Made by a program: the position numbers and the translations under genes. Shown here piece by piece: positions 22,571 to 48,530 of a DNA stretch of 64,000 nt. Source of the DNA: Rotaria socialis (Eukaryota). The stretch is taken from assembly GCA_905331295.1 (NCBI GenBank), contig CAJNYD010000281.1, forward strand, positions 1 to 64,000, read 5' to 3'. Numbering within the stretch: position 1 is the first letter of the stretch; each line of letters opens with the position of its first letter. The notes beneath the pieces were generated by a model. It did not search any database. It was not told the DNA's origin and saw only the letters and a list, made by a program, of their open reading frames with translations.

Positions 22571-22592
22571 TGAGGGTGAGGGTGAGGGTGAG
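22571..22592 (+). repeat. Telomeric repeats (TGAGGG)3.7 at the 3' end of the giant terminon
   Basis: TGAGGGTGAGGGTGAGGGTGAG directly followed by the pLTR. Confidence 0.88.
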
Positions 22593-22599
22593 ATAAATA

Positions 22600-22675
22600 A
22601 CCACGATAAAATTTTTAAAGATGTTATTTTGAATTTTATTTCGATTCTATTTAAAGGAATCGATTATCAAGTGGC
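22600..22675 (-). ncRNA. Variant hammerhead ribozyme (U3-A8 core) in the terminal pLTR; partial second pLTR copy at ~22775-22830
   Basis: GCCAC-TTGATAA-TC-GATTC(CTTTAAATA)GAATC-GAAA-TAAAATT...AATTTTA-TC-GTGGT. Confidence 0.68.
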
Positions 22676-22968
22676 ATAGATAATTTGTATGATTTTAAAT
22701 AAATAAGATCAAAACTAAATTATCCAAATGAAATAGAAATTTTAAACAATTTCTTTTCAAAATACTCTAATAAAGAGTGAGATAAATAACCACGATAAAA
22801 TTATTTTGATTTTTAAAGATGTTTCAATTTTTTATTTTTTATTTTTGAGAAAATGAATTTTTTTACATTCTTTTTTAACAGAAAACAGATAAGATAGATT
22901 TAGGTTTTGAAAGAAAACGAAGACGATGTGTAGTTCCGTGATATTGATAAGTGTTTGCTGATGAATAG

Positions 22969-24056
22969 TTATGGTTCATTTTTTGAGGCCATTTTCAGAA
23001 TTTGTTCAGCGCGTCGTTCGATGTTCTGTATTCTTGTTTGAATAATTTGTTTGATATTGGTTTCGTTTGTTTTTGTTGTGTTTGTTGCAAATTCTATGTT
23101 TTCGGTTATATGATCAGTTTGAATATCGTACGAAATGATATTATATTCAGATTTGATTTTAATGGTGTCCGTTTGATAGGATGGTTTTGTTTGTAGAGTT
23201 GATTGTGGTTTTTTTTCGAACGTAAAGTTTGATTGTAACCATGGTTTAAGGGTGAATGTAATCTTTCGTTTATTGTAACGGCTATGTTTGCGCCAAATCT
23301 GTTGAGCAAAACATTTCTAAAATGATAATTTTCAGGATTTATTATCGATGAAATATTTTGTATTCTTATACTTACTTGTTGTTCGTTTGGGTTCAAACTA
23401 TAAAATTGTTTGACCAGTTCAACTTCTCTTATATCGAATGGTAAAATCGACTTTTTGTTGTCGAAAAATTGTTTCGATTTCTTGAGATCATGGTCGATGA
23501 GTGTACTTATAGCAATATCCATCGTATCAACTGAGAAGTTGATAATATATTCCTTTGCTATTCCATAATAATGATTTTTTTCTTCTAAGTGCTTGTTCAA
23601 TCTATATTCTGCTTCTCGTATTTTATTATTGATCAGTTGTTGTCGATGTTGTAAATTTCGTTGACTTCGAGGATAATCCCAATTAATCGAATTATGTTTT
23701 GTTATATTTTTCGGCATCTCTGATAACCATTGTATAGCAGGTGTTACCATTTGAATAAGATGTTGCCAATAATCTTGTTCAATCTGTAATTGTGATAAAT
23801 GAAATTTCAAAATTGTATGCTCTCGTATAAAATTAAATAAAGCACGATTTGATAGCCAATGTCGAATTTTTTGATGATCACTTGGTATAGCATTCGATAA
23901 TTGACGAATGAATACATGTGCCGGTAATTTCCTATAATTTGGTAGATTTTTCGATGATGATACTTTCCATTTGTCTACAGTTAATTGATTCTTCTTTCTA
24001 ACAAGTCCATTATTTGTTTTAGCAGGTAAATTATGTTCGATCATTTTTAGTTCCAT
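22969..24056 (-). CDS. Terminon coiled-coil protein, 2 exons
   Basis: Exons 24056-23376 and 23316-22969; FYSLNPNEQQ| intron and C-terminal IQTRIQNIERR parallel the gene at 25760-27113. Confidence 0.7.
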
Positions 24057-24368
24057 TGATTTTGATTCTTGTTTATAATTTATTTCAAATTGAAAATAAT
24101 ATAAACGATAAGATTGTATTTTATATCGAAATGATTTATTTGTATATCTAAAATGGAGAATACATTGACTTTCTTTTTATTTTTATTTATAATGAAAATG
24201 AATTTAATTCTAATTTTTCTCTAATATTAACTTTCTACGTTTTTTTTTCTTTACAATACAATGCAAGATGTAAGAATGAATATAAGATAAACTACAACGA
24301 TTAACATTCTAAATAATAGTTTCAATTGTTTTTAAGACAATTACAATCATAAGAATTTTTGAAATGAA

Positions 24369-24982
24369 TCAAAATGCATTACGATAATTTTGATATGTTC
24401 TTTTATACAACTTTTCAAGTGTTTTTGTTCGATTTGTTTGTGGAATATAACGTCGTGGTCGATTTGTCATACGATCATGTACAAACACTTTGTCGAATGA
24501 TCTATTTTTGAATGCTTCGAATAGTTGCAGACCATGTTCACCGCTATGTACACATACTTCAGTAATATAATTCCAAAATGCCTGATGATCTCGTAGATAT
24601 TGAGAAATGAGTGTTGCTTCAAATGCTTTTGCTTTATCATAATTGATGGAATGAAAATCTTCACCAAGTAACCATAAAAGATTGGCTGATAATGATAATT
24701 TATACGGCCATTGATTTCTTCGTTCGGTGTTACATCTTTGACATTGACACTTATCATCGTCAATACTAGAATAAATAATAAAAAAAGTTGAAGAAGAAGA
24801 AGAAGAAGAAGAAGAAGAAGAAGAAGAAGGTGAATTAATTCAGTTAGTACAATCATTTTATTATACCTATATTTTAATTTTTGAAATGGATATCCAATTT
24901 CATTTCGTCGTTTTGAGAGCCCATTCGACGAGTCTTCTTTAATAAAACATGTATAATGTTTCACAAGAATAAGTTTAACCAT
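24369..24982 (-). CDS. Hypothetical ~170-aa protein with CxCxxC motif, 2 exons (not in the ORF track)
   Basis: Exons 24982-24867 and 24765-24369 in frame: MVKLILVKHYTC...KYS|IDDDKCQCQRCNTERRNQWPY...NYRNAF*; the intron contains a (CTT)n tract. Confidence 0.65.
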
Positions 24983-25759
24983 TTCAATAATTTCGAAATT
25001 GAAGTTGATAGAATGATCTATAGAATTGTTTGAATTTGTTACAGAATAATATCTAAAATAGAACATATCTTCATTTTTCATAATGAATACGTATACGTTT
25101 GTAGAATAAATTATGATTTAAGTAAAAGATTAATTTATAAAGTAAAAGTAAATGAAGGAAAAAAAAGTGATAGTAAATTATAGAATTAAAATAATAAAAA
25201 CATATTGAAATAGATGAATCTAAAATTGTATTTAATTCAAATACACAAAAAAAATTCATTGATTAAAAACAAATCCATGTATGATTTGAACATTCATTGC
25301 TTGAAATAGAAGAAGAAGTTGAAGAATAGAAATTCATACATTCAATTGACATAAGATATATTTGTATATGATCTATAGAAATTTGAAAGAAAAAAACAAA
25401 ACAACCCATGTTTGAAAATATTCAGAAAAAATAGTTTATAATTACTTGTATCATTTTTCAAAGAAATGTACGATGATAGTTCCATCTATCAAATTGTCAT
25501 TGTAAAGATACCAAAATAAGAAGATGTTCCATCAAAGAAATGATACTATGATCTAGAATGAACTAACAAATATCCTAATGTAGTCGTTAAGACGTAAATA
25601 ATAAATCAAGGCACAAATATATAGAAAAAGTGTCACACAAAATGAAAAATTAGTTTCAATAACAAATGGAAAACAAAAAAGAAGAAAAATTCAAAAATTC
25701 AAATGTCTATGATGTTGATGGTTCATTATATCTTCTATCCATTTTTGTTTTATTTTTCA

Positions 25760-27113
25760 TTATTCTGGAAATATTATTTTTATCGTTTGTTCTGTATGAT
25801 ATCGAATACATTCAATCATGTTTTGTTGACGATTTCCAATAGCTTCTAGAACATTTTCGACGGTTGGTAATTTCTTAAATTTATGTTTTTGATTTAAGAT
25901 TTTTGTTTTTTCGACATTGGCTGCTTCATTATAGATTTGAATGTTTTTCTCAATCAAGAGAATAGTTTCGTTCATGGATTCAGACACCAATTCTTTTAGT
26001 AACATTGTATCAATATGTGTTGTTGATAAAGTATTAAATAATACTTTATTTGTAAGAATAAGTGTAAAAAGTTCATTGATCTTAGTTAAACCTAATTTCA
26101 TCATGGTATGTAATGTCATTGATATAGTAGGTAAAGACATCCATTTTTTGAAAATAGTAAGTTCATATTGTAATGATTGTTCGTATTGAGTAGCCTTCCA
26201 GATGACTTTAGCCGACAAAATCTAGAGTAAATCAAAAGAAAACACTAGTAGTATCATATCGAATTCATAAGAAACTATTGACAGATAAACACAAACGAAC
26301 CTCAGTTTGTCTTGGATTCAATTCATAGAATGCATTCACAAATTCATGATCTTGAGCATCCATTTTTAGCATTTGACGTTGTCGTTCAAATTCTATTCGT
26401 AATCGATATTGATCTCGTTGAATAAAATTATAAATAATGTTGTCAAGCTCTTGTATATCAATGGATATGGGTGCTTGTTTTTTAAATTCTTCAAGTTGAT
26501 ATTGACAATCGAGAATTTTCTTTCGAAAATAAATTTGACGTCGTTGAATTAATGCTTTTGTACGACCATAACTAACACACATTGAATTGACTAAAGCCAT
26601 TTTCTTTGAAACACGTCCATGCCAAATACCTTCTTTCATGCCAAGTTGATGATAATACATCCATTGATCATATTGTAAATTTAAATAATTTAATTTATTG
26701 ATAGATTGAGTCAATTGTCGACTAAATATGAATATCTCATCATTATTAAATAATTCAATGTAACGTTTTCGATCATTTTCATTTGATAATGAATCCAAGA
26801 TTTTTTCTTTAAATATTTCATTGGATACATGTGAATAATCATTTATAGTTAAAGTTGGATCTTTATTTGATCGAATATGAGATTGATTGTCATTTTTCTT
26901 GAATAAACATGATTCAAACATAGAAAATGTTTGAGTGTCATTCATATGTTTCTTTAATAGTAAAGGTTGATAAAGACTATTTCCAAAAGATCTTATACGA
27001 TGATAGAATTTATGTGGTTTCTTTTTTAAATATTTTGTTCTCTTACACGGTTGATTCCCATTACAATTGTTATTCATATCAGTCGATTGTTGTTCATTAA
27101 TATTCGAATTCAT
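25760..27113 (-). CDS. Terminon coiled-coil protein, 2 exons
   Basis: Exons 27113-26301 and 26221-25760; basic N-terminus, FYELNPRQTE| intron, helical Q/E/K-rich content. Confidence 0.8.
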
Positions 27114-27348
27114 GATTATGTAGAAGATGCCTTTTTTTATCTATAATAATCTAAAACAACATAGAAGAGAAATAAGCATTAGATAAAAAAAAAGACATTG
27201 AATAATTCAATGAAATCCTAAATAGAACAATAATTGAAAAAAAGAAAAATTTAATTGTTATTGTTATTGTTAATATTTTTTGTTTTTCTTTTCATTGATT
27301 TTAAATTTTCTTTGACATTCATCAATACATTTTGTTCAATGATCATTA

Positions 27349-30300
27349 CTAGGCTGTTGTTGTGGTTGATTCAGTCAATTTTTGTTCTAAATTGTTTTTG
27401 AAAATAACAAAACAAAAATATACATTAGTCAGAAGATTTTTATTTTTTGAATACACTCACTCTTTTGAAATGGTTGATTTTTCAATAATGATGATGATGG
27501 ACGTTTTCTTGTTAATTCAAATTCAATATTTGGATTATTTCGATGACCAACAATTAATCGAATATCTTGATAAATCGTATTGTTGAAGAAACTATCATGA
27601 ATTTCATGTATTTGTCGTTGCATATTTCGAAATCGACCTTCATATAGAGAATGAATAAAGATTTTCTTGTGAAATTTATTATCTTTATCATTTGTTGTTT
27701 CTCCATCATTTTTAATACATTGATCTTTAATAATATGATCGACAGTAGCTACACTTTTATCAAATAGAATTTGTTTAAGTGAAGGTTGTGTTAATAATTT
27801 TTTTCGTAAAATAACAAATTGTTCTTCATTATCAATGAATGGTAGAATCGAAGAAAATGTCGGTAAATATTTGAGAAAAAATTGTTGAAATTGTGTATTA
27901 ATATAGACTGATGGATAACTAAAATAATTTTAAAGAAAAATAAAAAGAATATTATTACATTAAGTTCATTATAGAATTCGACCGAAATGAAATATGACTT
28001 ACTCATTATATAATAAAGTTGAACGTAATTCTACGTCGTTCAATATTAAATGCTTCAAATGTTGACGAATATCGTATTGCTCTCATGAGTGCTGTTTGAA
28101 TAACATTACGAAATACATGTCGTGGATGATCAGAAAGAAATGATAAAATAGTTGGTTCAGCCGCTGGTTTATGATACACAGATGAATACAATGTAGCATT
28201 TCGATTTTCAATGAGAACATCAAGAAAAGGTAAACATTGACCGATTGTATAAGTTAATTTAATATTTGGATGAAATTGATTTGCAAAATCTAACCATTCT
28301 TTAATTGTTGTTTCTGATTCATTGGATGTAAAAATGACATCATCAATATATCTATAAATAGAAAAATAAAATTCTTTAAAATAAAATCAAAAAAAATGAT
28401 AATACTGACCGGCCGTACAATTCATGAGAGGGTAATTTTGAAAGAATAGTTTGACGTTCCCATTTCCACATGAAAATATTTGCCAAGGTTAATGTAAAGG
28501 GTGAACCCATAGCACCACCAATAATTTGTCGATAGAATTTTCCATCATAAACAAAAACATTTTCTTTCAATACGAGACGAGCTAATTCAATGATTGTTTC
28601 AATGGATACGCCATCAATTTGCTGACAACCATGTTCACGAAGAAATTCAGCAAGAATTTCAAGTGATTCTTCTTGTGGTAACATTGTATAGAGATTAGTA
28701 ATATCAAATGTAACAAATAATGTTGACGACTTGAAATAACCATTTTTTATATAGACATCAAGTCGATGAAAAAGATCAACACCATCAACGATCGTCGTTG
28801 AACGAACATATCGATCAAATAATGGACGAAGTGATTGATCTAAAAATTTTGATATTTGTGTTGTTGCTGCATGTATTGTATTGATGATAGGTCGAAGTGG
28901 TGTTCCTTCCTTATGTGATTTAGGTAGAAAATACATATAAGCTAATTCAGTTTTATTTTGAATTGGAATTAATTTTGATTTTTGTCGTTCTCTAATTCTA
29001 TTTTGAGAACGTAATTGATTCAATAAATTCGTAACACGATGAAAGATATCATTCAATGGATTTGTTGATAGTTCTTCATAGGCACCTGTTGTTGTTCGAT
29101 ATAAATAAGCCTTCCGTTCATAATCACGCAGATGGCCAATATGAAATACACCACTTTTATCTGTTTGACGAAGAATAAGTTTATGTTTTTTTAATTTTCG
29201 TCGAATTGATTTAATCAATTTTAATTCTCGTCGAGCACGTAATTGATTCATCAATGGTAGTGGTTTCATATATTCAAGAGTAAGACATGTTCGTAGACGA
29301 TCTTCATATGATTTATACATTGTTGTAGTCTTGGGTATTGATGGATAGCCATCTCTTGTTGCATTGACTAAAGTATTTTTTATTTTATTTAACATCTCAT
29401 CGATCTCCTTTTTTATTTGTTTATCACGTTGTTTTATTGGTCGTAGTGTACTTTGATTTGGCCGTATATAACTTGGACCTAAAAATAAAACACAATCATA
29501 TAGATAAATAAATAAAATAGAGAACATTTTTTTTTCTAAAATATTCTACTAAACCTCTTGAAAGATATTTTAATTCATTTGTTGTAAATGGATGTCGTCG
29601 AAGATCAAGAATGACATGTGGAGAAACTTGAACTTGTTTAAGAAATTTTCTTTTTCGTTTCAAACGTTGTCGTTGATGTCGAAGTTTTTTTTGAAATATT
29701 GGTATTTGTTCATAATATATGATTTGTTTTAATCTATCGATTCGATAATTCATATAACGATGAAAACCTTCTAATAGAATACTTTCATTGTTAGATAGAT
29801 TATTCTTTGATACAAATTCTTTGAAAAGTTGTTGATATTCATTTTCACGTTGTTGATATTGAATTTCATAGGAATGTAAATAAATATTTAAAAAATGACG
29901 TTTTGTTTCTTGTATTAATTTAAATCGTTTTTGTTGATATTCAATAGAAAGAAAATCGCGAAGATGTGTTCGATATTGAATCGATCTAAAGATATTTTCA
30001 ATACGATTCAATTGTCTAGGTAAACATTCCATTGATACACGTGTTTCTAATCGAAGATAATTTTCAAAGATTTCCAATTGTCGTTCTCGTATAAAGATCA
30101 ATTGATCAATCGTAGATTTCTATCAATGAGAAAACAAAACAAATAAATAACAATTCATTGAATATAAAACAAAATCTAAATAGAATTTACTTGTTCATCA
30201 GTATGAATATGAGATAATAATGATTTATATAATTCATTTTCATGAATATAATTTTTATATCTAGTCAATTGAGCATTTAATTTTTCGGTAAAACGTGTTC

Positions 30301-31120
30301 GTTGTAGTCGAACGAATTCTTTGAGCTTTTGATTAAGTATATCGAAGGGTCCCAATTTAATCGGACATAATTCAGCTTGTTTCTTTAATTCATTGATACA
30401 TTCACGATATTCTTTTTCAAGTTTATTTAAACGTTGTTCAATATATTGTACACTCAATTCATTATTCGTTGATTTTATTTTCTTCTGTATACACATCTAG
30501 AAAGAAGAAAATACTATATATATATATATTGAGAATAGTATTCAACTTACAGGCCAAAACTTAGATAGAGAACCAAGAGTTAAATAAGTTTGCCATAAAA
30601 ATCGATATTGACCAAGACGATATTGTTGATCGAGTAAAGGTAGTCGTTGATAGATAAATTGTTGATGTTTCTTATTTGTTAGTTTTTGTTGTAAATGTAA
30701 ACGAACACTTTGCATAAGTATATTGGGTTCCTTTTTTAAATACATTGGAAGTCGTCTATTGAATTTCGTCGATGCCACTTTCAATTTTTTACATTTCTTT
30801 ATTTTCTTCTTCAATTTTCGTTTAGTCGTCGATGTCTTTCTTGTCACATTCTTCGATTGACGTAGTACAATATCATTTGTTTCTTTCATTTGAATATCAT
30901 TTTCTTCTCGTCGTGGTGGTTGTTGCTGTTGTTGACGATCTTGAATTAATCGTTGAATTTCTTCATCATTCATACCTCGTTGACGACATTTCTTTTTAAA
31001 GCGTCGTAATTTACGATTACCGTGACATCGTCGACGATGTAGTTTTGTTCGTTGAATTGTATTTTGTTGTTGTCGTCGTTGATTATTGATCTTGTTGATG
31101 TTAACAGTCGTGGATCCCAT
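27349..31120 (-). CDS. Athena-type RT (YIDD) with N-terminal basic/CC region, 7 exons; one +1 frameshift at ~28027
   Basis: Exons 31120-30551, 30496-30191, 30119-29555, 29478-28410, 28351-28003, 27918-27461, 27386-27349. Motifs: RRRCHGNRK, QTDKSG, FLPKSHK, FDITNLYT, GGAMGSPFT, YGR|YIDD, YHKP. Confidence 0.88.
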
Positions 31121-31313
31121 AATGGTTTTGATAGTTTGTTTATCAAAAATAAAGATTGACGTTCATCTAGAATGGATCTAAAATGAAAACATAACACGTA
31201 CGTATGCCATCTACGAAATAAATCGAATGAAAAGTTACTACAATCTAGTTTAGAAATATTCAAATAAACATGTATTTTCTAAGAGAAGAAAAAAACGAAA
31301 TATTCTATTGAAT

Positions 31314-32765
31314 TTAATGATTATTCTTTTTTTCGTTCGATTTCCAACGAAAACATTCAATCTTATATTTATAAATCGATTGAATACGTTCACCTATCAT
31401 TCGACAACGTTCAGTGATTAAATCGATCATTTTCAACGGTAATATTGTATCATCAAGTGCATTATGATGAATATCATATAGTTTCTCCTTTTGATTATCA
31501 TAGTTTAATTCAGCTCGAGTTCGTTGATCTTCAGCTGTTTTTAAAATTAATGTACAAAAATCAGCTTTGGCTTGTTGGATCAATTCTCGAGATTGTTTTT
31601 GTAACAATTGTCGTATTTCAACATTTTCAATAGAATCAATCATTGTTGAATCAATAAGTGCTAAATCTTTGAAACATTGATCAGATACATTGAAATGATG
31701 CATTCGTTCTTGAAGAAATTTCAGTTCTTGTTCAGTTGTTTCTTTTTCATCTTTTTTCAAACATAATTGTTTCATGAGTTTTTTCTAGAAACAGACAAAA
31801 AAAATATATGAATAGATAACTTCATTATTATCAAAAATACATACTTGATATTCAGTTGCATTTTGACGATCAAATTCTCGTTTAATAGCTTCGATATGAT
31901 AATCAATGGTAACTAATTCTATTTTATGTTCGATTTCTTTTTGAAATTCATATACATTTCGAAGAATATAATCTTTTAATAATTGTTCAACTTTTAAACT
32001 GTAACCAGAGATATGATTGACTTTTTTATTCCATTCAATTTCTGTTTGTCGTAATTGTTTTTGAAGTTCTTGTCGGTGAACAGAAACTATATCCATTGAA
32101 CTTTGATTCATATCTGCAGATTGTTCATCCATTGATTTTAATAATCGTTGAATTTCTTTAGGCCAAATACTAATATTCATCGCATAGATAATATAAGTTT
32201 GTCTTTCAGATGTTGGTTTAATCAATTGACCAACACCTGACTCCCAATAACTTGTCCATAATAAATGATACATGGATAGAATTTGTATTTGATAGAGAAG
32301 AATACTGACGTCTTGTAAATCATTTTGTATCTTATCATTCGTCATAGATACATTCATCATACGCAATGCTTGATCAATAATGGATTGAAATGTTTTATTT
32401 TCTTTGGTTAGATAAGTTGGAATTTTCTCTAAACGTTCTTGAATCTTTTTATCGATCAATATAGATGAATTCTGAATTCTTTTTGTTGTTGTTGGAATCA
32501 CTGATGTTGTTAATTCAGTCATTTTTTGTGATAATATTCTTTCTTGTACGTTCTAGAAAATAATAATTTTCAAAAAAGAATCATTCTTTTTCTTTTTCAT
32601 ATTTACCTCGATCATGGTTGAATATAATGGACCTTGACGAGAAGACAAGTTAGGATCATTCTAAAAGAAAGAATATGTATTCATATAAATGTATGAATAA
32701 TTTTGTTTTACTTGTCTTCCATTGACTTTATCTTGATTATTATCAATGAATAAATAGTCAGCCAT
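31314..32765 (-). CDS. Terminon coiled-coil protein (homolog of 4606-5929), 4 exons
   Basis: Exons 32765-32712, 32660-32607, 32552-31845, 31784-31314; IPTYL, SGVGQL, ISIWP motifs and TEYQ| intron. Confidence 0.8.
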
Positions 32766-33147
32766 GTTGAATAAGTTGAATTGAAATGAATTATCTAAAA
32801 CAGAAGAACAAGTCATTGAAATAACTCATTATCTAATTATGAATTGAAAACAATGACAAGTAGAGTAAACACAATGAAAAACAAAACAAGAAAGAAGAAA
32901 TTGCTAATCATAAATGAATTGTCTTCTAAAACTACTAAACATACATATATGAAAAAGAAAAGAACAGTACATATCAATCTAATCAACATCTAAATGGTTA
33001 AACAAAAATTAAAGAACAAAAAAATGAAGGTTACAAATAAATAATACTATCTCAATGATAATATTATTTTTATCGAACATTAGTTAGATGAATTTTCGTT
33101 GAAATAAGATTCTTCATGATTGAAAAAACAATTTTCAAATCGATGTT

Positions 33148-35464: not shown

Positions 35465-35681
35465 TCAAGGAAATTGTATTGATTCACTTGAACTATTTTC
35501 CATTTTAGTGGGATATTTTGATCGTTTTGTGAATATCATAAAAATAAGATAAATCGTTAGAAGCAATATCAAAAAAGCCATACCAAAACTCAAACCATAA
35601 AGAGTAGTTCTTGATGAATATGAATCATGTTGATTTTCCATGATGTTTAATGGTGATGTTGATGGTGATGTTGATGGTGAT

Positions 35682-35714
<33 letters not shown>

Positions 35715-35920
35715 TTTGTTTCTAAAAGTGATGCATATTCCATATAATTACCAGTCGTAAGTTCTTCAACAATCGGTTTGACACGACTTAATTTTTCACG
35801 AACGATCATCGGAATGGTTGTTGCTTGATTTTTATTCATAGGCATGACACAATCTGCTCGTTGATTATTTTTCTTAAAAACCTTTTGAAAAAGTTCTATG
35901 AATCCATAAATGTTGAACAT
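35465..35920 (-). CDS. Single-pass membrane protein with Thr/Ser-rich stalk
   Basis: Poly-Thr/SPST tract, hydrophobic LYGLSFGMAFLILLLTIYLIFMIF, then TKRSK. Confidence 0.7.
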
Positions 35921-36867: not shown

Positions 36868-36957
36868 CTAGAACAGAAAAAGAAACAAAACAAAACAATG
36901 ATGTCTATGATAAGAACTACAACTACAACTACAACTACAACTACAAATAATGAAAAG

Positions 36958-39900
36958 TTATTGTTTATTTAATATTGCATGTATTGGTCGTTGTTGACTT
37001 AGAAGTGCATTTAATGAATATTGAGATTTGGTTGTAATATCAAATTTTAATTTGGTGCTTTCGAATTTAAGATTATGTAATTGAATATTGTCCACTAATA
37101 TTTGACGTAATTTTTTATTGAATTCACCTTTTCGACTTATATTATCATAGATATAAGATAGAGGAAAACGACGATACTTCTTTAATGCATCTTGTTTTTT
37201 TTCCATGTATTGTCGTTGTTCATACATAAAATTAAATAGACGACGACGAAATTTTTCATAGCCATGTTGATCTAAATGTAATTGTTGAATTGCTTTTCCA
37301 TCAAAATATTTAAAAAAATGTTTCAAATGTTTTTCCACAAATTCCCATGAATAACCATTAGCTAAATAGGTCATTTCAAGATAGATACGTTCTTGATGGA
37401 AATCTTCAATCGTTGTACAATAACGAACAGCACGTATAAGACTTGATCGTAACCAATGACTATGTGTTCTTATTGCATTTCCATTTGATACATATGGTAA
37501 TGTATATGTTGGTTGATGTTGAATACGACTATAGAGTGAACCATGACGATTTTCTAAATAAATATCAAGATAGGTTAGTTTATCTTGAACTTGTATATGA
37601 AAATCTAAATAATCTTTGTATTTCGAAGTCATCGATTGTAAAATTTTATCTAGTTCATCCATTGAATGATTCCATGTAAAAAAGATTTGATTTTGATATC
37701 GTCCATAGAATTCATTGTGCATTGAATTTTGTTCAATTAAACATTGTTCCATTCGACTAAGATAAATATTCGATAATGTTTCAATCAGACCTGAACTTGC
37801 TGGACCACCTTTTCGATATCGATAAATTTTACCATCATAATAAAATCGATTATTATGTAGAAATAGACTTATCAATTGAATCACTTTTGTTACTTGTATA
37901 TTTTCAATACATGGTAAATGATAACATTGAAGGAAAAAATCTGTTAATGTATTCAACATATGATCATGTGAAACCATATGATAAAAATTGCCAATGGTAA
38001 TCGTGACAAATTTTGTTTTCGAAGAAAGACGATGAGTACGATCAATGTATTCATGAAATTTTCGTAAGAAATCTGAACCATTGGAAAACATTCGTCCTTG
38101 TCGATGTATATTGATGACAGTTCGTAAGATGGAATCAATAAATTGTCCTAAACGATAAGTAGCACTTTGTTTTGTGACCATCACCATAGGTTTAACATCC
38201 AATGTAGTTTGTTTCCATAGATCTGGTAGAAAATATAAATAAGGTAATTCTACTTTACCAATGAGAACAGTAATTCTATTCAATTGATCTTTATATTTTT
38301 TTGTATCCATAAATATTGTTTTAAATTCACGATTCATTGATTTAATTTTTCCTTGTAAATAATCTTGTGTTTCTTGAACATTGTCATTATTAATCTCCAT
38401 TTCTAATTCAAATCGATCTGTTTCTAACATAAATTCATTGCATAATTTTTCAAATAATATTCGATCACCTAAATAGAAAACATTTCTTCGATTAGCTGTA
38501 CGTCTTAAAATTAAATTAAATGATTTTAAATCATTTCGTATCTTGTCAATAAGTTGTTGTTCATAATATGCACGTTCCAACATGGCCTTGGATATCATTG
38601 TTGTTGTTGTTGTTTTCGAAAACATTTTCATATAAAGATCTTTGACTTGTTTTTGTAGAATGATTGTTTGAACTAAATTTACATCAGATTTTACCAATAG
38701 TTTATTTAAATCATGCTGTAATGGTTTATAATTTTTTTCTAAATTCTCTTCGATCAGTTGTTGATACGGTGATACATAAGTTGGTCCACGTGATAACAAT
38801 TGTAAATGTTCTTTATTTAAATCATGCATGGATGCATGTACAATGATCGTTGGTAAAAAACTAATTTTAGCTAAATTAAAATCATCGGATTGTTGACCAA
38901 AATGTTGTCGTAAATAATAATTTAAATGAAATTCTTGTATACCATGATATTTTTCTTCCGCTAATCTATAACGATGTTGTATAATAGTCATCAATGAATC
39001 TGATGTTAATATTGATGAAGCCAATTTTTCTTGTTCTTGATAAGAACGTTGACATTCATATAATTTTTTTTCCGCATCTACAATTGCTTTGGTCATACAT
39101 TCATTAAAATATTTTTGTAATTGTTTATTTTCGTAGTCAATATCTTGATGAAAAAATTCTGGATTTGATGTCAACGTCATCAGTAGCATTGATGAAGCTT
39201 GTGTTACACTTGTTTGTGTTGGTTGATTACATTGAACACGATGTTTCAATTCAATGAATTCATATTTTGTTTGTATGTATTCATTGTATGCTTTATATAG
39301 ATTTGTAGCCATTTCAATCTTTAAAAAAAAAAGAATATGTAGAGAACAAAAAAAGAAAAAAGAAAATATCTACTTGTTGTTCAGTTGGTTGAAGAGAAAG
39401 AAATTCACGTTCTAATAATTGATCTTGATAATCATATTCAAATTGTGCCAAATAATAATCGGATTTCATTCTTGATGGCAGTAGACGATATGTTTCAATA
39501 AATTCATTAAGTTTATCTTCAATGATATCTGTCATCCATTGACGACCATCTTCTTTCAATGTATTCTTTTGTTGTTGTAATTCTTCTAATTTTTGATTTA
39601 TTTTATTGATATATTTTTCAACATAGATTGCATATTGTTTTTCATTGATTTCTTTCATAGTAAATAGTTTCTTTACTTCATTCGACCAGATCTGTTGTTG
39701 AACACCTGCTTCACGATATCGTGTCCAACGTTTTAAATGAAGTTGAGCTACACCAATGCCATGTTGACAATGAATAAAATTTTTTAAATTATTGGGTAGT
39801 GGTCTTCCATTATCATGAAACATTGTACGATGAAACATGTCATCCATTGTTTCTAAATAACTTGTAATTTGATTTGTTTGTTCTGGATGTTGTACATCTA

Positions 39901-40315
39901 TATCTGTTGGTGGTAAACAAATCTTTTTCTTGGGATTTTCTTCTTGACTCGTTGATGGTGTACTCAATGGACGTTTATGACCTTCTGTTGATAATTGACT
40001 TAATTTTTGTGATAACATTTGTTCTTGATCCTGTTGTTGTTGTTGATCACCATGCATTTTATCTAGAATTATAGATGGTTGTTGTTCTTCTTCTTCTTCT
40101 TCTGTGTCTTCTTGATCAGAATAAAAATCTAAATCTTCATAATAATCTTCCATGATCATACGTTCAATTTCTTGTCGATCATCATCCATATCATCATCGA
40201 TGGTAACAATATCAAAGATATCATCAAACCAATCGATATTGTTAAACTTAAATAAAAAGAATATTAAATTAGAAAAAACAAAGTTATTTTAACATACTCT
40301 TGGTAAATTTTCCAT
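36958..40315 (-). CDS. Catalytically inactive Athena RT paralog with N-terminal CC region, 3 exons, ~1083 aa
   Basis: Exons 40315-40298, 40246-39374, 39318-36958. LLSRGPTYV, LRRTAN, LYFLP, VKPMV, NGYS retained; motif A reads VTITIGNFY and motif C YGRYQNQIFF (no Asp). Confidence 0.85.
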
Positions 40316-40438
40316 AATTATAATTGAATGAAATATCTACAATAGAAGAAAAAAAAAACAAGAAAGAATGACTAACAACAATTAATAATGAACGTTTTCT
40401 AAAGAAAGATAGATAGATCAACATAGTTTTTGTTTTAT

Positions 40439-42023
40439 TTAAATCATGGGACGAACTAAATTTTCATAACATAATTCTTCATTGTCTGATATTGGCATTG
40501 TTGAATATTCAATATCTAAATGACCAAATGTATTTAATTTTGTTTGAGCTTGTGTGATAAAAAGAGCTTCAATCACTCGTCGTAATGTACTTGATGTATG
40601 TTTTGGTACTAAATAAAATGAAATAAAATAAAATGAGAGATGGTTAAAATAAACAATAAATACACATTGTCTACTTACATACGGCAATGATTTTAGCTTC
40701 ATATAAATCTAAATGAAAGTTAGGTGTATGAAGATATTTTTTTTCTTGAAAAAATTTTTCAATATCAAGTTTTTGTTCAACAGTAAGATGATAATTCATA
40801 TTGGTTGGTAGTGGTACATCATTAGCAAATTGATATTGATTTGTATCGACAACTGGTAATTCTCGTTCTTGTTGTTGTTCGTCAGAGTCTGTCATTCGTT
40901 GAGGAATAAATGGCCAATATTCAGGATTTTCATCCAAGAAATATTGCATTGCTACTGAACAATGACATGAATGTTGATATAATTGCATACCATCTTTAAC
41001 CAATGTCCTACACATGAATAAACATAGAAATAGAGATAGACAATATTCTTTATTTTTAAGAATAACAACTTACTCAAATGATTTTATTTCACCATGATTG
41101 ATATAATTTGTTAATTTTTTTCCTAAAAGAAATTCTTTGATGATACGATTTCCATGTTTTCGATGATCTAAATATCAACAAACAAAAAATAGATATATAG
41201 AAAAAAGTGAAATTTATCTTAGAAAATTACAAGTAAGACGATGTGGTAATGATAAACTTGTTTCACCAATATAATCAAATTGCTGACATGGACATGTTAA
41301 AACATAGATCGTATTTTGTGTTGTACATGCTGCTGGACAATTTAAAATTGAACGAAAACCATTGACAAAAATATGTTGAATGGTCGATTGAGATTCTCTA
41401 TGTCGTTGTAATAATGATGGTGGTTTTTGTTTTAATCGATGAAACGGATAACATAAACAACAAGATTGTTGTTGACATGCATCCATTGTATAATGGCCAT
41501 AGGGTGGTCGTTCATTTGTTAAAAATATATTTTTGGGTTCATTTTCAATTGATTGACTATCTTGATAGGAACATGTTTTCATATAGAATAGTTCATGATC
41601 CATTTGTAGATAGAATTCCAATGCCACTTTATATTCTTCTAGAGATAGATATTCATGTTGTGCATTTGTTGAAAAATGATACATTCGTCGATGTGCCAAT
41701 CGATCGACTAATGTTAATAGTTTTCTAAAATTAAATTCTAATACATCTCGATGAATATTCCAAGATTGACTAAGAGTTGTCATCCATTGATGATGATCAT
41801 GTTGAGATGTCGTTATCATCGTCGTCTTATAATAACCATAACGTTGACGTTGTTCTAATTGTTTTTCATTGAGTTCCCTTGCTAGAGAAAAAAAAAAGAA
41901 AGGTATCATTATCGATAGAAATCATTTTTTTATTCTCTTACTTGGTACATTGGTTAATAATAGATCATTCGATGATGGATAACATGGTAGAATTGAATCC
42001 ATTGAATCTTGTTCATCTATCAT
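40439..42023 (-). CDS. Stand-alone GIY-YIG endonuclease with Cys-rich N-terminal region, multi-exon, apparently intact
   Basis: CTTQNTIYVLTCPCQQFDYIGETSLSLPHRLT|YHRKHG, LYQH, TLRRVIEALFITQAQTKLNT: Tyr, YIG, Arg, Glu and Asn of Penelope-type GIY-YIG present. Confidence 0.87.
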
Positions 42024-42068
42024 TCTATATATATAATCTACAATAGAAATAGAAATTTAAGATAATAT

Positions 42069-44984
42069 TTATCGAGTTAAAAGATGATTTAATGAAAATA
42101 AATGTTTAACAGTCAGATTTATTTTTGTTTGTTTCGATGATAATTGTGTATGTGAATTTGTATAGGTTGACCAAATACCAAAGAATTTCTTTTTAAATTC
42201 ATGATAAGGTCCATAATCATAGAAATAAAAAAATTCTATGACGGTAGAATTTTGACATCGTTGAAATTTGAAGAGTCGTGAACGAAGTTGTTTATACATG
42301 AATTCGTTTGTTTGAAGTTCATAGATATTGACATTGAAATAACTATTAAATTTTTCTAATTCATTTTCAATAAATTCATTGGAATAACCTGATATTAAAT
42401 AAATTATTTCCATATTGATTCGTTCACGAGTAAAATCTTGATAATTGGAACATACATGTATGAGGCGTATTAATGTTGAACGAAACCATTGTTGATATTG
42501 AACTTTTGGATAATTTGTTACATAGGGTAATATTAATGATGATGTATTCATTTTTGTATGCAATTGTCCATGACGATTTTCTATATGAATATGCTTAATA
42601 TTGATCTTCATACCAAATTCAATATTCATTTCAATCGTATCACCATAGAATTCTTTCAAGTTCTTAAGAAATACATGAAGATGTTCTTTGGATTGATTCC
42701 ATGTAAATAATAGTTCATCTGTATATTGAAGAAGAAATTCATTTTGAAATTGTTGATTATCATTGAACATTTTTTTTCGCCAATAATATAAACATAAAGT
42801 AGATAATAAACGATTGAGATGTGTATGATTAGGCATACCACGATTGAAACTATAAATATGATCTTGATAAATAAATAATGTATGTTGTAAATATAATTCA
42901 ATTAAACTTTCAATAACATTCACCGATAAACCATTGATCAACTGACTTTGACAATGATTTGCCAAAACATGAACGATTCGATTGACATTCGATTGATATG
43001 AAAACATGTTAAAAAAATTTTGAATTTTAATTCTTACTAATAATGTTGTTGATTTCAATTTTGAAGAAGAAGAAGAACAACATTGAATAAAATTAAAATC
43101 ATCATTGACAATAGATTGTTGTTTGAATAGATCTTCAATAGTGGATCGAAGTAAATCATCAAGATAGATAGATAATTTCCATGTTAAATTAGATTTCATT
43201 GAAACCATTGGTTTAATCAATGTTCCATCGAATAGAAACTGAATAGGTTTCAATTGAATATCATCATAGTGAAGAAAAAGTTGTTGATGAATATCTTTAG
43301 TAATAGAATGGCCATGTTCTAAACAATTGAATATTTTATTCATCTTTGATATTCGTTGTTTAGTTTCAATATCCATTTTTGTTCGATGACATAAGCGTTC
43401 ATAATCTTCTTCATGTTCATTCATATAATGTTGACATTGTTCATCATAATGTTTTTCATCAGTAAGACAGAATTGATTTCTATCATCGATTGTTCTTCTT
43501 AAAATAAGTTTATTTTTATGAAGACATTTTCTTATAGTTCCAATAATTTTTTGTTCATGAAATGATCGTTCTAATATTGTTGATGATATAGTTCGATTCG
43601 ATGTAGAAAATAATCGATTGAATTCTTCTTTTGTTTTTTGTTCAATGATATTGAATAATTTTTTATCTTTGGGATATTTTTCAACAAGATCTACTAATAA
43701 TTGTTGTCGTAATGGTTGATATTGTTGTTCATGAAGAAGTTGATCTGATAATTTCAATTGTAATTGACAGGGTGCTACATAACATGGACCACGACGTAAT
43801 AATTGTAATTGTTTTCTTGAAAAATAATTTTTTTTCATACTATTTTTATCTATTTGTAAATTATTGATAAAACCAATATGAGTTCGATCATGACATTGAT
43901 TACATAGATAATACTTGGTATGAAAATCTAATTTTAATTTCATTTCTTCATGTATTAATTCAATACGTTGATGAATTATAGACAATAATGGTTCGTCAAC
44001 TTTTATTTCATTTGTTTGAGATTTTAATTTTGTTTCATATTGAAAGATATTTATTTGTAAACATAGCAGACGTACGGCCATTAATTTTGTTTTTGTTTGT
44101 TGTAATAATTTTTCAAATACATCCATGGGTAGTAAATTATAATCTAATGTATCATAAGATATGGGTGGACGATCATAAAGTATTTGTAATCGATGATAGA
44201 TCAATTCATATTTCATTGTTAATAATTTAAAATTTGTTTCAAAGAATTGTTTTCCAATATCAATCTATGTTCAATGTAACAATTCAAATTATTTTATTTA
44301 GAATTCTCAATTTTAACTTACTTGATATTGTGTTGAAGTTTTTCTCTCATATTGAACTTGTAGTTGATGATCATGATATTTATTATATAATAATGCAATT
44401 TTATATTCAGATTCCATATGAATTTCAATTAAACCATAGTCATTGACTAATTTTTCAATTTGATTTTGTGTATTGGTATCTAATTTATATGAAGCATATT
44501 CTTGTTGATAATGATCCAATTTAATTTTATAATCATGAAGTTGTTGACGAATGCAAGTTTCATTGTAAAACCAAAATGGTTCTTCTTGTTGAAGAGAAAT
44601 TAATTGACCCTGACCCGCTTGTAAATAAAGTGACCATAAATGATAATAATGTTGATAACGTCCAATTTCATAAAGAACTTGAGCTACATGTCGACGATCT
44701 TGTTCATTCATTGAACAATGTAATTTTAATAATTCCATTTGTAAATAGGTTGGTATTGAATCATCATCATCATTATTCAAATGGGTCATTGACAATTGAC
44801 TTAATTGTTGTGATACATCTTCTTGTTCTTCTTCTCCTTGAATTTGAAAATCTTTTACTTCGTCATCGATCACATTGATATATGGACTAAAATAATCATG
44901 TTCTAATTCAATAGGATTCATTATTTCACCAAAGGAATCACCATCGATGACATCGAATGTTGAATTGACTAAATATTTCTCCAT
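42069..44984 (-). CDS. Second catalytically inactive Athena RT paralog, 2 exons, ~952 aa
   Basis: Exons 44984-44322 and 44264-42069. LLRRGPCYV, LILRRT, IKPMV, RGMP, LPYV, SGYS; motif A VRIKIQNFF, motif C LQYTDELLFTW. Confidence 0.85.
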
Positions 44985-45049
44985 ATAATCTAGAATGAAA
45001 TAACTATCCTAAGAGAAATATAACAACAACAAAAAGAAAAAAAAAGAAT

Positions 45050-46080
45050 TTATTTTTCATAATAATAACAATAAATAGCATGTACTTTAAGTATCATCAT
45101 ACAAAAACGATGATCAATTAAATTTAATGTCGCAACAGACAATTGTTCATTTGCAGGTAATGAATGTTGATGTTTCCAAAATAAAGCCATATCAGAATTA
45201 AATAAATTTTCTAAATTTGAACAAATGTCTTCTGACATAACAATCAATAATTGAAGTAGTCGATGTTTATAATCATGAAGTATTTCACAATGTTGATCCA
45301 TCAATTGTTGTCGAATACGATGTTCAGTCATCGTTTGAATAAATGATGGTATATCAACATGTAAATAACGAAATGAAGATGGCCATCGATTTTCTTTTTG
45401 ATAGTTATACAATTGTTGAATTTCTTCTTTCCATAATTGTAATTCATATTTTCGTTGTACAAGTCGTTCAATCATTTCTATCTATAATAAAGCAAACACG
45501 AAAAGATATACTATAGATGATAAAAACAAAATATTACTTGATTTGAATTATCAGTTTGTTGTTGTCGAATTTCATTTGCTAATCGTTCATCATTGTCATC
45601 ATAATCATAATCAAACAAACGGAAATGATCTTCAATATATTTTTCTAACATATTTTCAATGATTGTTTCATGTGATAAGATTTGTTCAATTACAGGTTTA
45701 TGTAAATATATTCGAACCACATCGGAATACATTTCATCTGTTAAATATTCAATGGATTGATGACGAACAACATTCATTGAGAGAATCACTTGTTTTAACA
45801 AGGTGGGCCATCGATGGAAACCATGTTCGATTGTTTTCAATAATGTTGACCAAAGTTGTTTTTCATGTAGACGTTTTCGTTCTTCATACATCGTCATTGC
45901 TAATTGTTGTAATTCTTCAATGGATATAGTTGTTGTTGAAACTGAAGAAAAAATTTTATGAAATAATTCTTGAAATTGTTCATTTGTCAACTGTAACCAT
46001 ATTGGAATATCCTTCTGTACTTTTTCGTTGTCCCTAGATGATCGATTCATTGTCAACAATGATATGTTTTCATAGTTCAT
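45050..46080 (-). CDS. Terminon coiled-coil protein, 2 exons
   Basis: Exons 46080-45538 and 45481-45050; IPIWL, RWP and C-terminal LPANEQLS..TLNLIDHR match the other CC genes. Confidence 0.78.
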
Positions 46081-46181
46081 CTTAATCTAGAAAACAAAAA
46101 AAAAACAAATAATAGAACAAGCAACTAAGATAGAAGAAAAACAAAAAACAAAAACGAAAAGACGAGAAGAATTCAATTAAT

Positions 46182-46433
46182 CTAAACAAAATCTGAACTA
46201 TGTTTTTTTGAATAAAACATAGTATAATCCTGTTCGTTGGCCAAAGGTCCACGTGAATTTTCTTGATTCGTCGCCGTTGATGGATAATGTTTTCGAGCAG
46301 AACAGAATATTCTTTTTATAATAACAAATACTATCACCATGAATAGAATAACGAAGAATAGACATATCATGAGAGTTGATTCATTTTGTTGTTGTAATAA
46401 TGGTTGAACATTTTCACCGATCGATGGTTCCAT
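46182..46433 (-). CDS. Small single-pass TM protein (83 aa), copy A1
   Basis: Short N-terminus, TM LMICLFFVILFMVIVFVII, then KRIFCSARKH; paralog at 46798-47049. Confidence 0.75.
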   Translation of the reverse strand: MEPSIGENVQPLLQQQNESTLMICLFFVILFMVIVFVIIKRIFCSARKHYPSTATNQENSRGPLANEQDYTMFYSKKHSSDFV

Positions 46434-46510
46434 GATTATCTGAAACTAGACAAATGGAAACTATACTAAGGGAAACAAAAACAAAAACAAAAAAAAAACA
46501 ACGGAAGATT

Positions 46511-46726
46511 TTATTTTGATTTATTTTGATGCATATTAGAGATTTGAATACTACAATGATGACAAGGAAGAGAATAACGAAGACGTAGAGTTTGTTCGTT
46601 GACTTCAAATACGTCCACGATGATCGACAGTGTAAGTTTCATCAACGCCATCAAACATAAACAAGCCAAAATAATGATCACACCTGTAGATGTATTCATA
46701 TTGAGATCGATCGTCGGAAACACCAT
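46511..46726 (-). CDS. Small TM protein with CxxC (71 aa), copy B1
   Basis: TM VIIILACLCLMALMKLTLSII, PCHHC; paralog at 47120-47338. Confidence 0.7.
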   Translation of the reverse strand: MVFPTIDLNMNTSTGVIIILACLCLMALMKLTLSIIVDVFEVNEQTLRLRYSLPCHHCSIQISNMHQNKSK

Positions 46727-46797
46727 TATGATTATCTAAAAAACAAAAGAGACAATCCATGAAACAAAAACGAAAAGAAGAGAAAAATTCAATGAAT

Positions 46798-47049
46798 CTA
46801 AATAAAATCTGAAATATGTTTTTTTAAATAAAACATCGTATGATCCTTTTCGTTGGCCAAAGGTCCAAGTGAATTTTCTTGATTTGTCGTCGATGATGGA
46901 TGTTGTTTTCGAGCAGAACAGAATACTTTTTTCATTATAACGAATAATATCACCATGAATAAAATAATGAAGAATATATATATCATGAGTGTTGATTCTT
47001 GTTGTTGTTGTAAAAATGGTTGAACATATTCAGTCATCCATGGTTCCAT
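46798..47049 (-). CDS. Small single-pass TM protein (83 aa), copy A2
   Basis: Same length and frame as A1, with substitutions. Confidence 0.75.
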   Translation of the reverse strand: MEPWMTEYVQPFLQQQQESTLMIYIFFIILFMVILFVIMKKVFCSARKQHPSSTTNQENSLGPLANEKDHTMFYLKKHISDFI

Positions 47050-47119
47050 GATTATCTGAAACGAGACAAATGGAAACTATACTAAGGGAAACAAAAACAA
47101 AAAAGAAAAACAGAAGATT

Positions 47120-47338
47120 TTATTTTGGTTTATTTTTATTCATATTATACATTTCAAGAATACAATGAGGACAAGGAACAGAAGTACGAAGACGTTGCGT
47201 TTTTTCATTGATTTTAAAGAGATCCACGAAGATCGACAGTGTAAGTTTCATTAAGGCCATCAAACATAAACAAGCCATAACAATGATCACAACTGTAGCT
47301 GTATTCATATTGAGATCGATCATCGGAAACCACATCAT
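47120..47338 (-). CDS. Small TM protein with CxxC (72 aa), copy B2
   Basis: Paralog of B1; PCPHC. Confidence 0.7.
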   Translation of the reverse strand: MMWFPMIDLNMNTATVVIIVMACLCLMALMKLTLSIFVDLFKINEKTQRLRTSVPCPHCILEMYNMNKNKPK

Positions 47339-47391
47339 GATTATCTAAAACAAAACAAAAAAAAAAGAGAAAGATAATGAAGATGAACAAA

Positions 47392-47739
47392 TCATATAAA
47401 ATTTTCATTGAAGAAGAAAGTTGATTTCTTATATCGTCGATAGTAGACTGAAATGCATATCAAACAAAATGAAATAATTATAAATAAAATAAAAAGTAAA
47501 ATAAAATCTTGAACGATTGAAGGTGATTTGAGAAAAAGAAGAAAAGGTCGTTCAATCATATTTGTAATGTTGAGATGAGAAATTTTCGATTGATTGGTAA
47601 ATAGAGGAGAATCTCGTACCGATATCAATGGATTATTGTAATGAGTTTGATGATGATTTTGTGTGAAATCATTGTTGACTCGAACCGATGAAAATGGAGC
47701 ACTGAGAATCCGTTCGTTGGTTCGCATTTCTGCATTCAT
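47392..47739 (-). CDS. Small membrane protein with C-terminal TM and basic tail (115 aa)
   Basis: FILLFILFIIISFCLICISVYY followed by RRYKK. Confidence 0.65.
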   Translation of the reverse strand: MNAEMRTNERILSAPFSSVRVNNDFTQNHHQTHYNNPLISVRDSPLFTNQSKISHLNITNMIERPFLLFLKSPSIVQDFILLFILFIIISFCLICISVYYRRYKKSTFFFNENFI

Positions 47740-47890
47740 GATTGATGAAGAAGATGAAAAAATAAAATCTACAATGAAAAGACAAAAACAAACAAAGATT
47801 GGAAAACAACTACGAATTCAACTAAAGGGTAAAATGAAAAGGATAATGTTTATTTTATTTTTTTTAAATGAACTTCACTCATCGATATCA

Positions 47891-48401
47891 TCAACGTGGT
47901 TTCGGCATGAGTAATTTAGTAGTACCAGCTTGACATGAACAATAAAGAAAAGCAATCAAAGACATAATGATAGTTATACAAATGAGATAGAGCGGCCTAG
48001 AAATAAACAAAAGAAAACAAAAACAATAGTATGAAAATGAAAGAAATTATTTTTTTTTCTTCAACATACCAATTATTCACGATATTGGTTAACCAATTGA
48101 CTGGCAACAATGCAAGATCAGTACCACCTTGCATAAGACGACTACCTTGACTTTTAGCCATGGACAACCATGCATATTTTGCTTTATTGCTTTCAGCATC
48201 GTTTACATTATCATTAACAATAACTGAACTTCCAATGTTTCCTGACGCATCATGTTTCTTGATATCACTAAAGAAATTGAATATACCTCGACGAAATCTA
48301 TGTCGTTGCGGTTGTTGATCATCCACTGGAATTGTTTGAATGAGTGGTAGGATGATGAGAATAAAAGTAAATAAAAATGAAGAGTTGAACAAGAACATCA
48401 T
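47891..48401 (-). CDS. Type I membrane protein: signal peptide, furin-type site, C-terminal TM; 2 exons, ~145 aa
   Basis: Exons 48401-48070 and 47996-47891; MMFLFNSSFLFTFILIILPLIQT signal, RHRFRR/GIFNFF, W|PLYLICITIIMSLIAFLYCSC. Confidence 0.75.
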
Positions 48402-48439
48402 GTTGAACTAAAATGTAAAAAGATAAAAATGATGAATTT

Positions 48440-48530
48440 TGCTAGGGAGTATTGCCTTTTTATAGTACACATCGGAGGGTGATACATAGAAATAGTTTTG
48501 CTAATAGAATCAAATTGCCTATTGGTTGAA
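48440..48530 (-). promoter_or_regulatory. Putative Pol II promoter at the 5' end of the terminon gene array
   Basis: Minus-strand TATAAAA at ~48458-48464 and CCAAT at ~48521-48525, upstream of the first co-oriented ORF. Confidence 0.45.

What the first reader, a model, noticed from the sequence alone, without database searches (positions are those of the whole stretch)
22571..48470. Giant telomere-attached multi-gene retroelement (terminon) with a near-complete gene set
Seen: about 18 co-oriented genes over ~26 kb, bounded by a TATA box at the 5' end and a hammerhead pLTR fused to (TGAGGG)n at the 3' end. Order 5'->3': six TM ORFs, CC, dead RT, GIY-YIG, dead RT, CC, TM, degenerate GIY-YIG, CC, YIDD RT, CC, Cys ORF, CC. 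Known: this matches the Athena-containing terminons of bdelloids. Inference: it moves as one unit, and this family or gene combination may be undescribed.
Basis: partly seen in the sequence, partly recalled or inferred. Interest (0 to 1): 0.85.

Follow-up and report, generated by a model that had tools for sequence, protein, structure and literature searches.

The report
Giant rotifer terminon, broken reverse transcriptase
This is a 26-kb, 18-gene copy of a known kind of giant rotifer retroelement (a terminon) that likely copies itself onto chromosome ends; its only catalytic reverse transcriptase gene is frameshifted, it keeps two conserved catalytically dead ones, and nearly every gene starts behind a splice signal, which suggests the array is read as one long RNA that is cut into single messages.

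Summary
Observation confirmed gene for gene: 18 co-oriented spliced genes on the minus strand (48401-22969), a TATA box at 48464, and a hammerhead (U3-A8 core variant) followed by three C-rich telomere repeats. The YIDD RT exon is identical to a Rotaria socialis protein, and its orthologue folds closest to telomerase RT; the GIY-YIG genes have the published Terminon motifs. It is a terminon in a head-to-tail chain. Parts of the gene order recur in other Rotaria species, but no second whole copy was seen. Added here: the dead RTs are old conserved lineages (35 of 36 homologues lack the catalytic triad); seven genes share one ~350-aa domain; 15 of 18 start codons follow an unpaired polypyrimidine-YAG|AT acceptor (background 8 of 220), pointing to operon-like expression by trans-splicing. 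The founding 2017 paper was not readable, so these additions may be in print. The scan noted terminon tails before on other DNA. Verdict: new member of a known kind.

The parts
22571..22591 (-). 3' end: (TCACCC)3 reverse-complement telomere repeats, (TGAGGG)3 on +
22600..22675 (-). type I hammerhead motif, U3-A8 core, 2-nt insertion before helix II, predicted cleavage after AUC at 22605
   Evidence: variant described in PMC4209133
22592..22968 (-). 3' untranslated region / pLTR with one and a half hammerhead-bearing repeats; 71-72% to pLTRs at 20572-21009 and 6062-6326
22969..24056 (-). g18 CC gene, 342 aa, 2 exons; shared ~350-aa domain
24369..25081 (-). g17 Cys ORF, 203 aa, 2 exons; no family match
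25760..27113 (-). g16 CC gene, 424 aa, 2 exons; shared domain
27336..31120 (-). g15 Athena-type RT, 7 exons, N-terminal shared domain, D-DD triad intact, frameshift in the thumb near 28030
31314..32765 (-). g14 CC gene (ORF1-like), 428 aa, 4 exons
33148..35196 (-). g13 second stand-alone GIY-YIG-like gene, 557 aa, 7 exons, YIG motif altered
35465..35920 (-). g12 single-pass TM ORF, 151 aa
36223..36867 (-). g11 Gln/Glu-rich ORF, 214 aa as a single exon (3' end uncertain); lacks the shared domain
36958..40315 (-). g10 dead RT 2, 1083 aa, triad reads T-N-Q
40439..42023 (-). g09 stand-alone GIY-YIG, 441 aa, 5 exons, CX4CxxC and CCHH motifs
42069..44984 (-). g08 dead RT 1, 952 aa, triad reads K-D-E
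45050..46080 (-). g07 CC gene, 324 aa; shared domain
46182..47739 (-). g02-g06 five small TM ORFs (115, 72, 83, 71, 83 aa); g03-g04 and g05-g06 are a tandem duplication
47891..48401 (-). g01, 145 aa: N-terminal hydrophobic segment, RxRR site, C-terminal TM
48458..48464 (-). TATA box
48475..48482 (-). single TCACCCTC telomere-type remnant, likely 5' junction

Best explanation
This is a probably full-length terminon copy of a bdelloid rotifer (Rotaria socialis or a very close relative) with 18 co-oriented genes, whose RNA likely paired through its 3' (UCACCC)3 tail with a G-rich telomere overhang and was likely reverse-transcribed there by an Athena RT, and which would now need RT from another copy because its own is frameshifted. 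Steps: (1) one promoter at the TATA box likely yields a ~26-kb RNA (inferred); (2) genes 2-18 are likely released as separate mRNAs by spliced-leader trans-splicing at the unpaired YAG|AT acceptors (signal shown, splicing inferred); (3) an unspliced full-length RNA is the template, since all 27 introns are retained in the DNA copy (retention shown, route inferred); (4) the 3' hammerhead fold presents or trims the C-rich tail for priming at a chromosome end (published model, not tested); (5) telomerase caps the distal end, leaving the TCACCCTC remnant, and later additions bury the unit in a chain (inferred); (6) the CC proteins and the two dead RTs, all carrying the same helical domain as the active RT, likely act as non-catalytic RNA-binding or scaffold partners in the particle (inferred, weakest step, about 0.4).
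For: Gene models and order. RT exon 100% to a protein named R. socialis; all named hits among the 120 listed are bdelloid. Orthologue P0057 model pLDDT 85; top 15 Foldseek hits are telomerase RTs, best Z 19.2, rmsd 5.0 over 331 residues. Hammerhead directly followed by C-rich repeats, as defined in PMC6431247. [quoted passage not shown] GIY-YIG motifs match the Terminon rows of Fig. S2 of PMC8557442 by eye. Neighbour conservation: fused public models GIY1-dRT2 (R. magnacalcarata), CC-RT (four proteins, four species labels), RT-CC (R. sordida, two); 6 of 13 listed ENA dRT1 contig lengths equal a dRT2 contig length; 5 of 12 R. sp. Silwood2 RT accessions lie 52-103 numbers from a dRT2 accession; L072 has GIY-CC-RT-3 hammerheads-(TCACCC)4. 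Dead RTs: 35 of 36 homologues covering the triad lack D-D-D and are split from all DD RTs by a branch of SH-aLRT 100. Acceptors: 15 of 18 vs 8 of 220 flank windows and shuffle mean 1.1, max 7 of 2000; 4 of 4 independent RT starts in other families show YAG|ATA.
Against: No second whole copy or empty site seen; no genome held. None of the 29 metagenome loci of 3.8 kb or more carried a dead RT, and none matched this family closely. Linkage across species rests on contig lengths, accession spacing and fused gene models, not on DNA I read. The locus looks fixed and identical among isolates, so there is no sign of recent movement. Three ORFs outside the element (55983-58218) also have YAG|AT before their first ATG, so the acceptor may be a general feature of bdelloid genes or mark 5' UTR introns; cis-splicing is not excluded. 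The duplicated TM pairs show dN/dS about 1, no sign of purifying selection. The focal hammerhead has a 2-nt insertion where its three relatives have one. The tree is the quick one, with a long-branch warning and no named Athena references.
Confidence: 0.82

Rival explanations
1. The 26 kb is a mosaic of two or three separate, 5'-truncated terminon families joined head to tail (for example one ending after dead RT 2), not one unit.
For: Terminons form chains; this window holds at least five other 3' ends or fragments; three RT-like and two GIY-YIG genes look like repeated modules.
Against: No hammerhead core with flanking helix or telomere-type motif between 22675 and 48475 (one loose-pattern hit at 37409 lies inside coding sequence); gaps between genes are 45-678 nt, median 123; dRT1-dRT2, GIY1-dRT2, dRT2-RT and RT-CC neighbours recur in other species.
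Confidence: 0.08
2. A terminon-derived array that has been domesticated: fixed at one subtelomeric site, no longer mobile, with the accessory genes kept for a host function such as end protection.
For: 17 of 18 genes open while only the catalytic RT is broken; the same broken RT model stands on 11 public contigs; dead RTs conserved across genera.
Against: A 93%-identical sister with an open thumb exists in the same species (P0177) and a ~97% version of CC-dRT1; one recent frameshift in a young copy explains the pattern; orthologues in R. sp. Silwood2 are open.
Confidence: 0.07
3. An ordinary host gene cluster, each gene with its own promoter, lying by chance next to a pLTR fragment.
For: All genes carry normal spliceosomal introns; TM and Cys ORFs have no family match.
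Against: Strict co-orientation, RT and GIY-YIG genes of Terminon type, seven paralogues of one element domain, gaps too short for promoters, one TATA-type match (a narrow pattern chosen after seeing the site). PLEs are known to retain introns.
Confidence: 0.03

Closest known systems
Terminons (Athena-RT giant retroelements of bdelloid rotifers; Arkhipova, Yushenova, Rodriguez 2017, known here through PMC6431247, PMC5408684, PMC5718144, PMC8557442)
   Same: Size within the 40-kb range; co-oriented CC, TM and GIY-YIG ORFs; EN-free RT; 3' hammerhead followed by (TCACCC)n; short telomere stretch at the 5' side; head-to-tail chain.
   Different: From Rotaria rather than Adineta vaga; no DEDDy, GDSL or Rep gene (no Pfam match); two dead RTs and two GIY-YIG genes in one unit, which the reviews I read do not describe (I recall, unverified, that the 2017 paper mentions inactive RT-like ORFs); catalytic RT frameshifted in this copy.
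Terminon GIY-YIG endonucleases labelled V, VT, W2 and X in Fig. S2 of PMC8557442
   Same: CX2-5CxxC linker, CCHH finger and large insertions; by eye g09 is nearest the W2 row, and my hit P0316 is nearly the X row.
   Different: Compared by eye only; family assignment of this element was not computed.
Canonical EN+ Penelope/Neptune elements
   Same: PLE-type RT, hammerhead in pLTR, retained introns, related GIY-YIG.
   Different: There RT and EN are one ORF in a 4-6 kb element; here EN is stand-alone and the 3' end is telomere-complementary.
SL trans-spliced operons of nematodes, tunicates and chaetognaths
   Same: Close-packed co-oriented genes, each behind an unpaired acceptor.
   Different: Here the array is a retroelement; SL addition was not observed. 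PMC7986045 (2021) says operons were not reported in rotifers, whereas PMC12460157 lists rotifers loosely among lineages with trans-splicing and operonic transcription.

Membership tests
Terminon | PLE-type RT related to telomerase RT, without a fused endonuclease | tested here: met
   D-DD triad, DKSG motif; orthologue folds closest to TERT; no EN in the ORF
Terminon | RT falls in the named Athena clade / a named family | tested here: inconclusive
   All named relatives are unnamed bdelloid proteins; no labelled Athena sequence came up, so the tree has no references
Terminon | 3' hammerhead immediately followed by reverse-complement telomere repeats | tested here: met
   22675-22600 then (TCACCC)3
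Terminon | Many co-oriented accessory ORFs (CC, TM, GIY-YIG; DEDDy, GDSL, Rep optional) | tested here: met
   18 genes on one strand
Terminon | Stand-alone GIY-YIG with CX2-5CxxC, CCHH and large insertions | tested here: met
   (weak Pfam GIY-YIG on two of four homologues scanned, below cut-off)
Terminon | Head-to-tail chains with short telomere stretches at junctions | tested here: met
   pLTR ends at 22591, 21123, 20590, 6082, a cap at 6005, all same strand
Terminon | 5' end capped by telomere repeats | tested here: inconclusive
   One TCACCCTC 11 nt before the TATA box; 0.23 expected by chance per strand in the whole window
Terminon | Position at or near a chromosome end | not testable with these tools
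   No genome held; surroundings are TE-rich and gene-poor
Terminon | Mobility as one unit (further copies, empty sites) | tested here: inconclusive
   Sister RT and CC-dRT1 versions exist; neighbours conserved; no whole second copy; one search gave no junction for this end
Terminon | Ribozyme cleavage and telomere-primed reverse transcription | not testable with these tools
   Needs biochemistry
EN+ Penelope/Neptune/Naiad | RT and GIY-YIG in one ORF | tested here: not met
   Separate genes 2-9 kb apart
SL trans-spliced operon | Unpaired acceptor before each downstream gene, short spacers | tested here: met
   g02-g16 within 60 nt, g17 and g18 at 138 and 91 nt; best upstream donors mostly score below real donors
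SL trans-spliced operon | Spliced leader found on the mRNAs; polycistronic precursor | not testable with these tools

The most novel reading that the evidence does not exclude
This terminon family is a retroelement organised as an 18-gene eukaryotic operon: one promoter, host spliced-leader trans-splicing to release each mRNA, and a transposition particle built from seven paralogues of one helical domain, among them two ancient pseudo-reverse transcriptases that serve as structural partners of the single active enzyme; true and not yet described in print.
Probability: 0.2. Interest if true: 0.7.

Novelty: new member of a known kind. Interest (0 to 1): 0.42.

Why it matters
Terminons are the largest known retroelements and their mechanism is a model without biochemistry. 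A probably complete unit with both ends, 17 open genes and an open sister RT is a usable reference for Rotaria. Two open questions become directly testable: how one retroelement expresses 18 genes (17 predicted spliced-leader sites with coordinates), and why RT paralogues without catalytic aspartates have been kept across bdelloid genera. As a discovery it is modest: the class, its 3' module and its accessory gene types are published.

Tried and rejected
No whole genome held. The 2017 Terminon paper, the 2007 Athena paper and the 2016 piRNA paper are not held; their text and supplements may already describe dead RTs, this gene combination or trans-splicing. Seven paper searches listed nothing that describes them; several returned mostly irrelevant papers. 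Pfam gave no match above cut-off for any of the 33 element exons scanned; PDB sequence searches gave 0. Dead-RT scans of metagenome and viral contigs and RT scans of viral and prokaryote contigs found no relatives. The pLTR core pattern was in 0 of 80 loci. Dead RT 2 model was too poor to use (pLDDT 46). ESM Atlas gave only weak hits for the CC exon (recognition 1196). Sequencing runs: no RNA holder listed. Tree: label 'DD' on P0022 is a pattern artefact (its triad reads K-N-Q); no rows were dropped. AG|AT bias with the first PWM test was not significant (10 of 15 vs 9 of 26, p 0.06); the direct motif count was chosen afterwards, and two of the 15 genes are duplicates.
Full report
What is there. 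Between 48401 and 22969 the minus strand carries 18 genes. Exons joined at GT-AG introns of 51-101 nt give open frames for 17 of them. Gaps are 45-678 nt, median 123. The models are mine, from sequence and homology; public models agree where I could compare them.

Ends. A TATA box sits at 48464, and 11 nt before it a single TCACCCTC. At the 3' end a type I hammerhead (22675-22600) is followed by (TCACCC)3. Its core reads UUGAUAA, the U3-A8 covariant that Cervera and De la Pena report for PLE hammerheads (PMC4209133, passages); it folds into three helices with z -2.2. Three related cores lie at 20857, 20666 and 6156. All ten telomere-type C-strand matches in the window are on the minus strand. 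The unit is the distal member of a chain of pLTR fragments and a second, 5'-truncated element at 146-6005. The window does not reach a chromosome end.

Identity. The main RT exon is 100% identical to P0056, labelled Rotaria socialis; 244 relatives passed E 1e-20, and the named ones among the 120 listed are all bdelloid. The open orthologue P0057 (70%) gave a confident model whose best matches are telomerase RTs, as expected for a Penelope-like RT. The GIY-YIG exon has 134 relatives, with conserved CX2-5CxxC and CCHH motifs; these match the Terminon rows of Fig. S2 of PMC8557442 by eye (sections 3 and 12 read). The definition of terminons used is section 8 of PMC6431247 (read whole) plus passages of PMC5408684, PMC5718144, PMC5537684, PMC3846280, PMC7943196 and PMC13564844. 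The 2017 founding paper was not held; anything I say of it beyond these reviews is recall.

The catalytic RT is broken in this copy. Read straight, the frame closes shortly after a one-base shift near 28030 in the thumb. Public models P0056 (9 contigs) and P0176 (2 contigs) skip seven residues at this spot, so the shift is probably real and shared among isolates, while P0177, a 93%-identical R. socialis copy with the same CC gene upstream, is open there. A cryptic splice that drops those seven conserved residues is possible but unlikely to give a working enzyme (inference).

The dead RTs are not decay products. Dead RT 2 has 55 hits; 36 cover the three catalytic positions and 35 of them lack D-D-D, mostly with the same replacements. 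Dead RT 1 has 9 hits at 59-91%. In a quick tree of 66 rows the DD-less proteins form several lineages, separated from all DD RTs by a branch of SH-aLRT 100, with a long-branch warning. A profile seeded only with relatives of the CC gene g14 finds g07, g08 and g10 (E 4e-12 or better) and g18 weakly; a second round adds g15, g16 and g18; reversed controls reach E 0.33 at best. So seven of 18 genes share one ~350-residue helical domain, and the element looks built by repeated duplication of a domain-plus-RT module.

Does it move as one unit? Direct proof was out of reach. Indirect support: fused public gene models join GIY1 to dead RT 2, CC to RT and RT to the next CC in other Rotaria species; 6 of 13 listed ENA contigs with dead RT 1 have the same length as one with dead RT 2; GIY1 and dead RT 2 relatives share two more contig lengths; five R. 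sp. Silwood2 RT accessions lie close to dead RT 2 accessions. Of 80 metagenome loci, 29 of 3.8 kb or more were examined: 12 have a CC gene directly before the RT, L072 runs GIY-CC-RT-three hammerheads-(TCACCC)4, none has a dead RT and none is this family. The six TM genes, g11, g12 and the Cys gene were not shown to be conserved elsewhere, and the duplicated TM pairs have dN/dS near 1.

How 18 genes are expressed. Fifteen consecutive genes, g02-g16, have a pyrimidine tract and YAG|AT within 60 nt of the start codon; g01, right behind the TATA box, has none; g17 and g18 have the motif at 138 and 91 nt. Flank windows show it in 8 of 220, shuffles in 1.1 of 18 on average; internal acceptors are followed by AT in 9 of 27. 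Candidate donors upstream mostly score below real donors, and the leader before g01 has no donor. Four independent RT starts in other families show the same YAG|ATA. Rotifers have spliced-leader trans-splicing (PMC7986045, passage; PMC12460157, passages). The simplest reading is an operon-like transcript resolved by trans-splicing, with an unspliced copy as template. Against specificity, three ORFs outside the element show the motif too. No RNA was seen.

Verdict. A real, probably complete terminon copy, non-autonomous as it stands. Class, 3' module and gene types are published, so it is a new member of a known kind. The conserved pseudo-RTs, the seven-fold shared domain and the acceptor pattern raise it above routine, but may be in the paper I could not read. 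Two earlier scan notes on terminon tails agree with the reading and were not used as support. Interest 0.42.

Noticed in passing
window 146-6005 (-): Second terminon, CC plus RT with intact triad (38% to the focal RT), 5'-truncated at an ACACCCTC remnant, with a canonical CUGAUGA hammerhead at 146-174 and a short C-rich tail.
   Followed up: partly
window 6062-7030, 20572-21009, 21019-22570 (-): Further pLTR fragments with U3-A8 or canonical hammerheads and ACACCC/TCACCC tails; a TATA-like box near 7010 upstream of the first.
   Followed up: partly
window 17900-18345 (-): One hammerhead-like core at 18304-18331 and two decayed repeats below it, without a telomere tail.
   Followed up: no
window 48957-49515 (+) and 49876-50184 (-): A divergent four-exon gene of 123 aa with a hydrophobic stretch, and a converging acidic ORF, just outside the 5' remnant; host or element origin unknown.
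   Followed up: partly
window 47891-48401 (-): g01 has an N-terminal hydrophobic segment, an RxRR site followed by a short hydrophobic run, and a C-terminal TM, loosely like the small TM ORF3s of bdelloid LTR elements.
   Followed up: no
window 8885-12635: Diverged ~181-bp tandem satellite in two blocks.
   Followed up: no
window 15890-16700 (-); 61668-63763 (-): Integrase-like remnants (Pfam rve) and a hAT transposase with BED finger.
   Followed up: no
window 55980-58218 (-): Three ORFs without family match, the latter two similar to each other by eye, in a higher-GC block.
   Followed up: no
P0079, P0204: R. magnacalcarata models in which an RT end is followed by the latter part of dead RT 1, probably a 5'-truncated copy of this family stacked behind another element.
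   Followed up: no
L074, L075, L072: Other Athena families where the CC gene before the RT is of the g16 type; L074/L075 appear to have CC and RT in overlapping frames.
   Followed up: no
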